Sequence record: OP744025 | DNA: 64,000 nt | Reading direction: 5' to 3' (one strand) | Source of the DNA: Escherichia phage A5-4 | In this document: positions 57,433 to 59,264 of the stretch, piece by piece | Layout of the letters: the number at the start of each line of letters is the position of its first letter | Numbering within the stretch: the first letter of the stretch is position 1 | Notes under the pieces: model-generated | What the model was told of the DNA's origin: nothing | The model's database searches: none | Seen by the model: the letters and a program-made list of their open reading frames with translations, nothing else | Program-made: the position numbers and the translations under genes

Positions 57433-59264
57433 TCAACCAGGGGCCGCAATAGTGGCCCTTGTCATGTCCATCGGTGCGACTCTCCCAACTCTATTAATCC
57501 CTTCCCCATTTGGATCATCATAACTTATCTCATCTAATCATTAATCTAATCCCCTTTGGAATCTCTCCCCCACAAATCTAAACTAATCTGATAGCTTACC
57601 ATAACATAATCCACAAAGAAAGAACTATTTTGCCCACAAAGAAAGGCAGTTTTAAAGAGATACCATTGCCAGAGTATGGAGGTGGCGCGACCGTAGGGAG
57701 CGACACTATAAAACGAGTATACCCCTCCTACCGCCCTGCGGTCATCGGTGATAACCGATAACATACTGTTATCTGTTCTCTTCGTTTCCTCGTTTTATAG
57801 TGTCTATATGTAGTAATCTTTTATTCTTTGTCAACAGATTAATTGGCTTATAGACAATTATTTATAGTGATTTATTATGCATAGTTATTGATTATGTATG
57901 CAATAAGGATACAATAAGGATACAGTAGCGGTAGTGTAGCGACGCTGTAAATATCAACAAAGAGAGGCCGTATTTGCCCACAGAATGAACAAGTAAGCAG
58001 GGCGGTACGCCCTTTTGCTAGGTAAAACTCTCTTCTCTCTTCTTTCCCAAATAAATTTTTTCTTGCTTTTATTGCCAGAGTATGGCGGGCGCTCAGGCTA
58101 TTGATGGCCCTGATGGAGTCGCTCCTGCACAGTTGGGATAGTTCATCGTTGGATAGTCACAAGTTGGTATTATTCTTCCCACTAGTTGGAACAGGCCAGG
58201 CCTGGCAAGGCTTAGAGTCGCCTCACTTGTTGGACGGAAGGAGGGCGCTTGCGGTGCGTATAAGTTGTATTATGTTAAATGCAGATCGAAATTGGTATTC
58301 TAAACCAGATTCAGAAGTCAAGGGAAATCTTTAACTTTATTGTTGGAGTAGCACAACATTTTTCTTGACAAGTCGAATCAAAGATGTATTGTGGATTGAA
58401 AATAAATGAAGATAATGCTTGACTTCTTGGATATTTTGAAAACATCGGACCCCCTCCCCCTCCCCCACGGTTGCCATGCCTGGCAGCAGTGCCAACGCAC
58501 TAAACAAAAAAGATGCAAACATCCTCCGCTTTCTCCTCTCCGACAAAAGACAACAGACAAGGCTGGTTAGACTGGTTAGCCTCTTCAGGCCAGTACCCTT
58601 TGGATATATTTGGGCAGGATAAATAATAGACCACCCCCGTAAGAGGTGACTCAAAATTTTGGCGGGAGGGTATAAAAACTAAAAAGTGGTCGTTTAAAAT
58701 TTATGGCAGAGGTCCACTCAGGGTAGACATATACTGGAAATTCTAAACTATGGGGATGGATGTATAGGGAAGGGAGGTGACTCAGTGGGAAGTGGTATGT
58801 GGTAAGGGATTTATACACACGAGCCTCACTAGGCGAATGTGACTCTGTGGACAATAGGTATTACTCTGTGGACAATCGGAATAACATGAAGTAGGTCAGT
58901 CTCTTCAGAAAGTCTTGACCATTGCGGAAATATATGAAGTAATCCGTCAACCAAAATGGTTTACATTGTGGAAAGTAAACCAAAATGGTTTAGATGTGGG
59001 TAAACAGATGTGACTCGACAGGCAAAGTGGTGTGTCTCAGTAGGCCAACAGTGGTTACTCTTTAGGCAAACTACCTAATTTTGGGATGAATCGATATTTG
59101 TGGGAATCGTTGTACGATATTTGGGCATTATTGTATGCAGTGTACAACAGTTTGGAAGGACTATATAGTTTGGTGGGCACAACATTTTGGGATGAGCAGA
59201 TGAGTTTGGTTGCAATCCAGATGCAAAAAGCACCCACTTTTGGGGTGCTCTCTGTAGTTCAGGA
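57433..59264. repeat. ORF-poor, repeat-rich region between convergent gene blocks
   Basis: 1.8 kb without a convincing ORF. Repeats include ATTGCCAGAGTATGG (57664-57678 and 58070-58084), tandem CTCTGTGGACAAT (58843-58876), AACCAAAATGGTTTA (58948-59000), ATTTTGGGATGA (59078, 59184) and the C-tract cccctccccctccccc (58451-58466). Confidence 0.6.

What the first reader, a model, noticed from the sequence alone, without database searches (positions are those of the whole stretch)
57433..59264. 1.8-kb ORF-poor, repeat-dense region between convergent blocks, a candidate genome terminus or packaging region
In a genome where genes are packed with 0-50 bp gaps, this stretch has no convincing ORF. It is full of short direct repeats and a C16 tract (details in the feature at 57433..59264). 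Terminal repeats and pac/cos regions of linear phage genomes look like this, and an assembly boundary of a terminally redundant genome could fall here.
Basis: inference. Interest (0 to 1): 0.65.

Follow-up and report, generated by a model that had tools for sequence, protein, structure and literature searches.

The report
Phage genome end with terminal repeat
This gene-free, repeat-rich 1.8 kb stretch is the place where the linear DNA of an rV5-like E. coli phage begins and ends: it most likely holds a 460-bp repeat found at both ends of the packaged DNA, a feature already known in related phages.

Summary
Region 57433-59264 has no ORF conserved in frame across relatives, except one untestable 44-aa ORF. 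It is the most direct-repeat-dense 1.8-kb stretch of the window and lies between convergent gene blocks. The 'C16 tract' is really C5TC5TC5 (58450-58466).

The window comes from an rV5-like E. coli myophage of the Septuagintavirus/UPEC06 clade.

- The UPEC06 record starts and ends with the same 462 bp, which map to window 58021-58480.
- Read-based or record-annotated terminal repeats of 459 bp (Gotham), 458 bp (EdH4, HdK5) and 514 bp (KPP-1) lie in the same non-coding junction.
- Their boundaries fall in the same short motifs, TGCTGCCA|GGC and TTGTC|T, within about 1 nt in three genera.

The anatomy runs as follows:
- terminators and a C-rich arm
- a conserved branched inverted repeat with an invariant GC box (57683-57804)
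- a variable AT-rich spacer
- the terminal repeat
- a variable iteron arm
- a conserved G-rich block and terminator

Most likely mechanism: site-specific terminase cuts with duplication of the repeat (T7-type), inferred rather than shown for this phage. This is a new member of a known kind and of modest interest. The conserved hairpin is the unexplained part.

The parts
57438..57463 (+). Terminator hairpin GGGGCCGCAATAGTGGCCCC closing the + strand gene block. It is a duplicate of the hairpin at 57130-57155.
   Evidence: RNA fold -18.9 kcal/mol, z = -4.4. Direct repeat family D3, copies 310 nt apart.
57464..57640 (+). Outer part of the arm on the ORF164 side. On the sense strand it is C-rich and G-poor (C/G ratio 2-10), which resembles a Rho-utilisation (rut) site. 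It carries TAATC and CCCACAAA motifs.
   Evidence: Composition. The same bias follows both convergent blocks in the window and in Vequintavirus navn. Motif positions.
57665..57682 (+). Copy 1 of the direct repeat ATTGCCAGAGTATGG(A/C)GG. Copy 2 lies at 58071-58088 inside the terminal repeat.
   Evidence: Family D8, 94% identical. AGAGTATGG occurs nowhere else in the 64 kb. Both copies are invariant in all six genomes.
57683..57705 (-). GC box TGTCGC-N9-TCGCGCCA, read on the - strand, directly next to the hairpin.
   Evidence: TGTCG and TCGCGCCA are invariant in the window, Gotham and KPP-1 (alignment A5).
57702..57804 (.). Branched inverted repeat with 21-nt arms at 57702-57722 and 57784-57804, and inner hairpins. 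It starts 217 nt from the repeat boundary.
   Evidence: Inverted repeat I1. DNA fold z = -5.0. Counterparts at matching positions in Gotham (z = -12), KPP-1 (z = -10) and Schickermooser. The 57580-57820 block is 94-97% identical in the clade. The Vequintavirus counterpart is at least 95.9% identical in 118 genomes.
57821..58020 (.). Variable AT-rich spacer (20-27% GC) with short tandem repeats (17-mer at 57864-57896, 11-mer at 57901-57924). It ends in a hairpin plus T-run (57999-58018) that abuts the terminal repeat.
   Evidence: Identity to relatives is 57-72% apart from A7_1 (98%), with 21-46 gap positions in all five. Hairpin z = -3.5. The counterpart in Vequintavirus is also hypervariable.
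58021..58480 (.). Predicted direct terminal repeat of 460 bp, single copy in this assembly. In rV5 orientation, 58480 is its left end and 58021 its right end.
   Evidence: Equals the 462 bp duplicated at both ends of the UPEC06 record. It is 91-96% identical in five relatives. Boundaries are homologous to the Gotham and KPP-1 repeats.
58365..58392 (+). Sigma-70-like promoter TTGACA-16-TATTGT inside the repeat, pointing towards 58480.
   Evidence: 10 of 12 consensus match. Invariant in five of six genomes; UPEC06 has one change.
58450..58466 (+). It lies 15-31 nt from the repeat boundary.
   Evidence: Invariant except for one base in UPEC06.
58478..58489 (+). Boundary motif GCC|TGGCAGCAG (reverse complement CTGCTGCCA|GGC). 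This is the predicted terminase cut at 58480/58481.
   Evidence: Unique in the window. Occurs once in each of ten related loci. The cut position coincides with the start of the Gotham repeat.
58481..59019 (+). Variable arm with GTGACTC-type iterons at 58646, 58777, 58839, 58860 and 59010. The array continues at 59032 and 59054 in the next block. Units are 21-22 nt, and copy number differs between relatives.
   Evidence: Indel-rich, 67-90% identity. This is the site of the HNH insertion in W70.
59020..59264 (+). Conserved G-rich block with TTTGGG / TTTGTGGG motifs every 17-34 nt. It ends in the terminator of the - strand block (59229-59250).
   Evidence: 93-96% identity. Motif positions. Terminator fold z = -4.3.

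Best explanation
The region is the terminal (concatemer-junction) region of a Vequintavirinae-type myophage.

**Proposed mechanism (inferred)**
- The packaged DNA is linear, with fixed ends and a short exact direct terminal repeat of about 460 bp, at window 58021-58480.
- In replicating concatemers the repeat is present once, as in this assembly.
- Terminase cuts at two fixed sites: GCC|TGGCAGCAG at 58480/58481 and TTTTGCTA|GGTAAAAC at 58020/58021.
- The repeat is copied so that every virion carries it at both ends. This is the T7 type of packaging.

**Roles of the non-coding arms (inferred)**
- They end the two convergent gene blocks. Each has an intrinsic terminator followed by about 180 nt of C-rich, G-poor transcript suited to Rho.
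- They carry cis elements: arrays of fast-evolving 21-22-nt iterons, and a strongly conserved branched inverted repeat with a GC box about 200 nt inside the repeat on the ORF164 side. These are the best candidates for terminase recognition, for priming the duplication of the repeat, or for replication initiation.

**What is shown and what is not**
- Shown: homology of position, length and boundaries with terminal repeats in relatives that are read-based or set with a termini tool.
- Inferred: that this phage is cut at the same sites, and the roles of the arms.
For: **Identity and orientation**
- The window is 84-91% identical over this region to A7_1, A73, W70, LTH01 and UPEC06, all Vequintavirinae.
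- It is inverted relative to rV5. Window 56695-57114 is 87% identical in protein to rV5 ORF164, and window 56292-56561 matches navn gene 131.

**Terminal repeat in the clade**
- The first 462 nt of the UPEC06 record equal its last 462 nt, and they map to window 58021-58480.
- The UPEC06 authors used PhageTerm to determine the termini.
- Jab is reported with a 475-bp repeat.

**Terminal repeats in the same junction in other genera**
- EdH4 and HdK5 have 458 bp.
- KPP-1 has 514 bp, from 2x coverage plus PhageTerm, lying in the gene-free gap.
- Seven independent Vequintavirus records start or end exactly at this repeat.
- rV5 has a 2.6-kb 'non-coding' box at the same place.

**Boundary homology, cuts coincide within about 1 nt**
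- Left boundary: ctgctgcca|GGC in UPEC06 and the window, gtgctgcca|GGC in Gotham, ggtgcta|GAC in KPP-1.
- Right boundary: GTTTTGTC|tagc in UPEC06 (GTTTTACC|tagc in the window), ACTTGTC|tgac in Gotham, ATTGTGT|ttagc in KPP-1.
- Both motifs are unique in the window.

**Conservation pattern**
- The repeat and the hairpin block are conserved (91-97%). The spacers are variable and rich in indels.
- The same pattern holds in 118-120 Vequintavirus genomes.

**Other support**
- The terminators fold stably.
- The arms are C-rich on the sense strand.
- The Phapecoctavirus Schickermooser has the same layout: ORF164 homologue, inverted repeat, then a 328-bp repeat at the record end.
Against: - No reads of this phage were available, so doubled coverage and read-start pile-ups were not tested.
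- The only direct evidence in the clade is one GenBank record (UPEC06, labelled 'partial genome') and one CheckV statement for Jab, whose sequence I could not place.
- The right-boundary motif differs slightly in the window (TTTTACC, against TTTTGTC in UPEC06).
- The rV5 paper calls its genome circularly permuted. One Vequintavirus paper reports a PhageTerm call of headful packaging.
- The Septuagintavirus paper does not report termini.
- The roles assigned to the arms rest on sequence features only.
Confidence: 0.78

Rival explanations
1. The region is a headful packaging start (pac) region. Terminase makes a first cut here and then fills heads, which gives terminally redundant, partly permuted DNA without exact repeats.
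For: rV5 was described as circularly permuted. One Vequintavirus (BpE1AUH) was called headful by PhageTerm. Most relatives were deposited as circular-type assemblies opened elsewhere.
Against: Seven independent records end exactly at the same 459-bp repeat. Gotham and KPP-1 show doubled coverage or fixed starts. The same BpE1AUH paper reports terminal repeats by CheckV. The rV5 statement rests on assembly only. The region is roughly 55-90 kb from the large terminase gene, which was set as gene 1 in A7_1, whereas pac sites usually lie in or next to the small terminase gene.
Confidence: 0.08
2. The region is mainly a replication origin. Iterons bind an initiator, an AT-rich stretch unwinds, and DnaA boxes recruit host factors. 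Its position at the genome end would then be secondary.
For: There are phased 21-22-nt iterons and AT-rich stretches of 20-27% GC. One perfect DnaA-box consensus (TTATACACA at 58811) and three near matches are present. Promoters are present. A strongly conserved structured element is also present.
Against: The iterons are the least conserved part and change in number and sequence between close relatives. One consensus DnaA box in 1.8 kb is roughly what chance gives; my estimate is about 0.1 expected. The AT-rich stretch and the iteron array lie on opposite sides of the repeat, about 700-900 nt apart. No initiator gene was recognised next to the region. This role does not exclude the terminal one.
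Confidence: 0.07
3. The region encodes one or more non-coding RNAs, for example a transcript from the 58365 promoter across the iteron arm, or a structured RNA from the conserved hairpin block.
For: A conserved promoter-like site lies in the repeat. A terminator-like hairpin abuts the repeat. The hairpin block folds far better than shuffled sequence in three genera and is under strong constraint.
Against: There is no Rfam match in the window, Gotham or KPP-1 loci. The structure is a palindrome that folds equally as DNA. Its size varies from 103 to about 205 nt between genera. No convincing promoter lies in front of it. The 57999-58018 hairpin is missing in LTH01.
Confidence: 0.05
4. The region is decayed coding DNA or a neutral spacer between convergent transcription units, with no function of its own.
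For: Parts of it (57821-58020 and 58481-59019) evolve fast and with many indels. Mobile DNA has landed in it.
Against: Three blocks are as conserved as the flanking genes or more so: 91-97%, against 93-96% for the flanks. The architecture is kept in four genera of two subfamilies. No ORF remnants with protein homology were found.
Confidence: 0.02

Closest known systems
Short direct terminal repeats of Vequintavirus phages (vB_EcoM_Gotham 459 bp; EdH4 and HdK5 458 bp)
   Same: Same syntenic place: the non-coding junction next to the ORF164 homologue. Same length class (460 against 459 bp). Homologous boundary motifs and the same cut positions. Conserved branched inverted repeat with a GC box about 200 nt inside the repeat. 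Variable iteron spacer. C-rich arms.
   Different: The repeat itself is too diverged for blastn. Only islands are shared, such as GTATTATGTTAAAT and the boundary motifs. The iteron families differ: TGTTTACA next to the right end in Gotham, GTGACTC on the other arm here. The gap is 1.8 kb here against 2.6 kb. The G/C tract lies inside the repeat here and outside it in rV5.
Klebsiella phage KPP-1 (Mydovirus) 514-bp terminal repeat, defined by 2x coverage and PhageTerm
   Same: It lies in the gene-free convergent junction. The boundaries are related (ggtgcta|GACGGAC and ATTGTGT|ttagca). It has a branched inverted repeat followed by TGTCGC-N9-TCGCGCCA.
   Different: The repeat is longer, the inverted repeat is larger (about 205 nt), and the host and genus differ.
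Phage T7/T3 concatemer junction (160-230-bp terminal repeat flanked by short repeat arrays; repeat duplicated during packaging)
   Same: It works alike: an exact short repeat, site-specific ends, arrays of short repeats on both sides of the repeat, and promoter and terminator signals in or near the repeat. This comparison rests on textbook knowledge of T7, not on a test here.
   Different: There is no sequence or gene-order relation. This is a 140-kb myophage that uses the host polymerase. The genes on both sides point towards the ends rather than away from the left end. No terminase comparison was made.
Phage T5 terminal region (10-kb repeats with non-coding repeat-rich injection-stop region)
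   Same: Non-coding, repeat-dense DNA with DnaA-box-like motifs close to a genome end.
   Different: The repeat is 20 times shorter and carries no genes. There is no evidence for two-step DNA transfer.

Membership tests
Vequintavirinae-type short direct terminal repeat region | The same sequence is present at both ends of virion DNA (doubled read coverage, fixed read starts). | not testable with these tools
   No reads of this phage were available. Among relatives, the UPEC06 record carries 462 identical nt at both ends. Gotham, EdH4, HdK5 and KPP-1 are documented in the literature.
Vequintavirinae-type short direct terminal repeat region | Position in the non-coding junction beside the ORF164 homologue. 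| tested here: met
   ORF164 homologue at 56695-57114, 87% identical in protein. The gap follows at 57433-59264. The layout is the same in rV5, Gotham, KPP-1 and Schickermooser.
Vequintavirinae-type short direct terminal repeat region | Conserved boundary motifs at both cut sites. | tested here: met
   The motif (C/G)TGCTGCCA|GGC is shared with Gotham, and the right-hand boundary motif is related (TTTTACC|TAGC here, CTTGTC|TGAC in Gotham, TTGTGT|TTAGC in KPP-1). Both align with coincident boundaries (alignments A3 and A4). Both are unique in the window.
Vequintavirinae-type short direct terminal repeat region | Repeat length of about 330-515 bp. | tested here: met
   460 bp between the homologous boundaries. 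Clade members have 462, 462, 462, 474 and 567 bp.
Headful pac site | Located in or next to the small terminase gene, with permuted ends. | tested here: not met
   In A7_1, which was opened at the large terminase gene, the region lies at 88.6 of 144.8 kb. Relatives have fixed ends.
Cos site (cohesive single-stranded ends) | Short single-stranded overhangs and no duplicated sequence at the ends. | tested here: not met
   Relatives carry repeats of 458-514 bp at both ends.
Iteron-type replication origin | Tandem phased iterons next to an AT-rich unwinding element and an initiator gene. | tested here: inconclusive
   Iterons of 21-22 nt are present, but they are poorly conserved. The AT-rich stretch is about 700-900 nt away, on the other side of the repeat. 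No initiator was recognised among the neighbouring genes.
Known RNA families (Rfam 15) | Match to a covariance model. | tested here: not met
   No match at E <= 1 in window 56500-60000 or in the Gotham and KPP-1 loci.

The most novel reading that the evidence does not exclude
The branched inverted repeat with the invariant TGTCGC-N7-9-TCGCGCCA box (window 57683-57804) may be an undescribed cis-acting element of this phage group.

- It sits about 200-300 bp inside the terminal repeat, on the ORF164 side, in three Vequintavirinae genera. A similarly placed inverted repeat, without the box, occurs in a Phapecoctavirus.
- It is better conserved than the repeat itself across 118 Vequintavirus genomes.
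- It could be the true terminase recognition site, a fold-back primer that duplicates the terminal repeat, or the replication origin.
- The highly conserved neighbouring 139-aa protein (the ORF164 homologue) could be its binding partner.
Probability: 0.3. Interest if true: 0.55.

Novelty: new member of a known kind. Interest (0 to 1): 0.3.

Why it matters
- **Annotation.** Knowing where the physical ends lie lets this genome and its relatives be opened and annotated correctly. Several relatives carry spurious small 'hypothetical proteins' called across this DNA.
- **Conflicting literature.** The result helps settle a disagreement about whether rV5-like phages are circularly permuted or have fixed ends.
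- **Engineering.** The junction is the cis element that a packaging or transduction system would need. That matters for engineering these broad-host-range therapeutic phages.
- **An unexplained element.** The comparison exposes a strongly conserved structured element beside the repeat whose function is unknown.

Tried and rejected
- **RNA searches.** Rfam at E <= 1 and a tRNA scan found nothing.
- **More distant DNA relatives.** Sensitive blastn of the region found only the same five phages.
- **Further clade members.** Exact-pattern scans with three invariant 24-30-mers across IMG/VR, JGI metagenomes and GTDB genomes (five scans) all found nothing.
- **Metagenome contigs.** Contigs carrying the ORF164 homologue proved to be ordinary Vequintavirus or Phapecoctavirus. 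Two of them break about 635-672 nt after the gene, roughly where Schickermooser has its inverted repeat and not at the repeat boundary. They give no independent end information.
- **Coding potential.** All ORFs of 40 aa or more in the gap lose frame or gain stops in relatives, except one untestable 44-aa ORF. None has a Pfam match. ORFs called in the gap of metagenomic relatives also have no Pfam match and are not shared.
- **DnaA boxes.** One perfect consensus is about what chance gives.
- **Chi-like protection of ends.** The G-rich TTTGGTGG-type motifs lie on the strand whose 5' end is at the terminus, which is the wrong orientation for RecBCD. This was checked by inspection against textbook knowledge.
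- **Sigma-54 promoter in CTGGCAAT.** The spacing is off by one, so I rejected it.
- **Locus-tag wrap points of A73 and W70.** As evidence for ends they are only loosely near the repeat, so I gave them no weight.
- **Protein next door.** The ORF164 homologue has no meaningful PDB sequence match (best E = 0.9) and only homologues at least 76% identical, so I did not attempt a structure prediction.
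Full report
**1. What is in the sequence**

Region 57433-59264 lies between a + strand block of small genes that ends at 57432 and a - strand block whose last gene ends at 59265. Stable hairpins mark both edges. They sit at 57438-57463 on the + strand and 59229-59250 on the - strand, with RNA fold z-scores of -4.4 and -4.3.

The stretch contains no tRNA and no Rfam family. Its ORFs of 40 aa or more are not kept in frame in the five relatives. The one exception is a 44-aa ORF that lies in invariant DNA.

The stretch is repeat-dense. For exact direct repeats of 11 nt, none of 234 other windows of the same length reaches its coverage. GTGACTC occurs four times, against 0.03 expected.

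**2. Where the window comes from**

The region matches only five GenBank phages, at 84-91% identity: A7_1, A73, W70, LTH01 and UPEC06. All are Vequintavirinae of the recently named Septuagintavirus group or close to it.

The type phage rV5 has a 2.6-kb box labelled 'non-coding' at a convergent junction between ORF163 and ORF164. Its function was left open.

The window is inverted relative to rV5. Window 56695-57114 is 87% identical in protein to rV5 ORF164, and the gene before it matches navn gene 131. The gap is therefore the same genomic place.

**3. The key evidence: a short terminal repeat**

- *In the clade.* The UPEC06 record begins and ends within this region. Its first 462 nt are identical to its last 462 nt, and they align to window 58021-58480. 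The authors state that they used PhageTerm to determine the termini. A further relative, Jab, is reported with 475-bp terminal repeats.
- *In Vequintavirus proper.* Gotham has 459-bp terminal repeats. [quoted passage not shown] The repeats are annotated at both ends of its record, each flanked by about 1 kb of gene-free DNA. EdH4 and HdK5 have 458-bp redundancies.
- *Independent records.* Seven independent records start or end exactly at this repeat.
- *In Mydovirus.* KPP-1 has a 514-bp repeat, defined by doubled coverage and PhageTerm, again in the gene-free junction.

**4. The boundaries are homologous**

Read in rV5 orientation, the boundaries compare as follows.

| Boundary | UPEC06 / window | Gotham | KPP-1 |
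|---|---|---|---|
| Left | ctgctgcca\|GGCACGG (window GGCATGG) | gtgctgcca\|GGCGGACGG | ggtgcta\|GACGGACAG |
| Right | GAGTTTTGTC\|tagcaaa (window GAGTTTTACC\|tagcaaa) | AAAACTTGTC\|tgacata | GAATTGTGT\|ttagcaa |

The cut positions were set independently by three groups, and they coincide within about one nucleotide inside shared motifs. Both motifs are unique in the 64-kb window. The left motif occurs exactly once in each of ten related loci.

On this basis the predicted repeat in the window is 58021-58480, or 460 bp. The homologous interval is 462 bp in A7_1, W70 and UPEC06, 474 bp in LTH01 and 567 bp in A73, which carries an insertion.

**5. Anatomy and conservation**

In window orientation the region runs as follows.

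- Terminator, then a C-rich, G-poor arm (57464-57640).
- Conserved block 57580-57820. It contains the repeat ATTGCCAGAGTATGG, a GC box and a branched inverted repeat.
- Variable AT-rich spacer (57821-58020).
- The terminal repeat. It contains a second copy of ATTGCCAGAGTATGG, a conserved sigma-70-like promoter (58365-58392) and the C-rich tract.
- Variable arm with GTGACTC iterons in units of 21-22 nt (58481-59019, with the array continuing to 59075).
- Conserved G-rich block with TTTGGG-type motifs, then the terminator (59020-59264).

Identity to the five relatives is 94-97% for the hairpin block, 91-96% for the repeat and 93-96% for the last block. It is 57-72% (98% in A7_1) for the spacer and 67-90% for the iteron arm, both with many indels. 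The flanking genes are 93-96% identical to A7_1.

W70 carries an HNH homing endonuclease gene (Pfam E = 5e-13) inserted about 10 nt outside the 58480 boundary. Other relatives have indels starting 9-10 nt outside the 58021 boundary. The conserved core is therefore the repeat plus about 10 nt on each side.

**6. A conserved structured element**

The inverted repeat 57702-57804 folds far better than shuffled sequence (z = -5.0). Counterparts are found in Gotham (z = -12) and KPP-1 (z = -10). In each case they begin about 200-300 nt beyond the same end of the repeat, and each is followed by TGTCGC-N7-9-TCGCGCCA, whose two halves are invariant across the three genera.

Across 118 Vequintavirus genomes this block is at least 95.9% identical, and at least 99% identical in 51 of them. 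The repeat itself is mostly 90-98% identical there. The iteron spacer between them matches in only 33 genomes.

The Phapecoctavirus Schickermooser belongs to another subfamily, yet it shows the same order: ORF164 homologue, terminator, C-rich arm, long inverted repeat, and then a 328-bp terminal repeat at the record end.

No Rfam family matches any of these loci. The function of this element is unknown. It is the part of the region that deserves follow-up.

**7. Mechanism**

The best-supported reading is T7-type packaging. Terminase cuts concatemers at the two fixed boundaries, and the 460-bp repeat is duplicated so that each virion carries it at both ends. After infection the repeats would allow concatemer formation.

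This reading rests on homology with relatives. It has not been shown for this phage.

The sense strand is C-rich and G-poor for about 180 nt after each of the two convergent blocks. The C/G ratio is 2-10, against a coding background of C 0.18 and G 0.22. This holds both here and in Vequintavirus navn. It suggests back-up Rho-dependent termination that keeps transcription out of the junction, which is an inference.

The iterons and the hairpin are candidates for terminase binding, for priming the duplication of the repeat, or for replication initiation. None of these roles could be tested.

**8. Rivals**

- *Headful packaging* has been claimed for rV5 (from assembly only) and for one other isolate. 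It conflicts with the fixed ends seen in many records.
- *A replication origin* is not excluded as an added role. Its hallmarks here are weak or poorly conserved.
- *A non-coding RNA locus* has no positive evidence.
- *A neutral spacer* is contradicted by the conserved blocks.

**9. Verdict**

Short terminal repeats are already documented for this subfamily, and for this clade by a termini-tool-based record (UPEC06) and a CheckV report (Jab). The finding is therefore a new member of a known kind.

I did not find three things in the papers I read: the placement of the repeat within the non-coding junction, the cross-genus boundary motifs, and the conserved hairpin with its GC box.

Noticed in passing
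L005 (W70) 4170-4652; alignment A2 columns ~1320-2090; the insertion point corresponds to window ~58490: W70 carries a 160-aa HNH_3 homing endonuclease gene (Pfam E = 5e-13). It is inserted about 10 nt outside the terminal-repeat boundary, within the variable arm. It is the only recognisable protein gene found in this gap in any relative.
   Followed up: partly
window 56695-57114 (+): The 139-aa protein (rV5 ORF164 homologue, phrog_12277, function unknown) is 84-90% identical across Vequintavirus, the window's clade and Phapecoctavirus. It is the last or next-to-last gene before the terminal non-coding DNA in the loci examined. All database homologues are at least 76% identical. It may act on the adjacent DNA.
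   Followed up: partly
window 57124-57465: A 310-bp module consists of a small gene (57235-57432, 65 aa, phrog_14244) flanked by two copies of the terminator hairpin GGGGCCGCAATAG(C/T)GGCC. It is present in the window, A7_1, A73 and W70 and absent from LTH01 and UPEC06. It looks like a gene inserted by duplication of the terminator.
   Followed up: partly
L004 (A73) ~3670-3775; window 62798-62859: A73 has a ~105-nt insertion inside the terminal repeat. It duplicates ~50 nt of the repeat and includes a 62-nt inverted copy of a sequence from a distant gene (95% identical to window 62798-62859). The A73 locus-tag numbering wraps at the same spot, so this may be an assembly or re-circularisation artefact.
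   Followed up: partly
window 58311-58445 (-): A 44-aa ORF starts 36 nt from the predicted left end and is preceded by the G-rich tract, which could serve as a ribosome-binding site. It is intact in all six genomes and annotated in three relatives. It lies in nearly invariant DNA, so conservation says nothing. It has no family match.
   Followed up: partly
phage database hits to rV5 104014-106617: About 18-19 GenBank records named 'Campylobacter phage' (host given as Campylobacter jejuni) are at least 93% identical to E. coli phage rV5 over this region and in the ORF164 gene. They look like Vequintavirus genomes with a doubtful host label.
   Followed up: no
window 57999-58020 (+): A hairpin AGGGCG-GTA-CGCCCT followed by TTTTGCTA ends exactly at the predicted repeat boundary. 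It is weakened in A73, W70 and UPEC06 and absent in LTH01.
   Followed up: partly
window 62167-62178: A run of 12 A is the longest homopolymer in the window. It lies just downstream of the 380-aa - strand ORF 62211-63353.
   Followed up: no
window ~33300: The genes diverge here: the - strand block lies to the left and the + strand block to the right. The sign of the GC skew changes at the same point, mirroring the convergent junction studied here.
   Followed up: no
L020 and L021 (Logan contigs carrying P0001): Two independent metagenomic contigs of Phapecoctavirus-like phages end 635-672 nt after the ORF164 homologue, roughly where Schickermooser has its long inverted repeat. This suggests the palindrome breaks short-read assemblies.
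   Followed up: no
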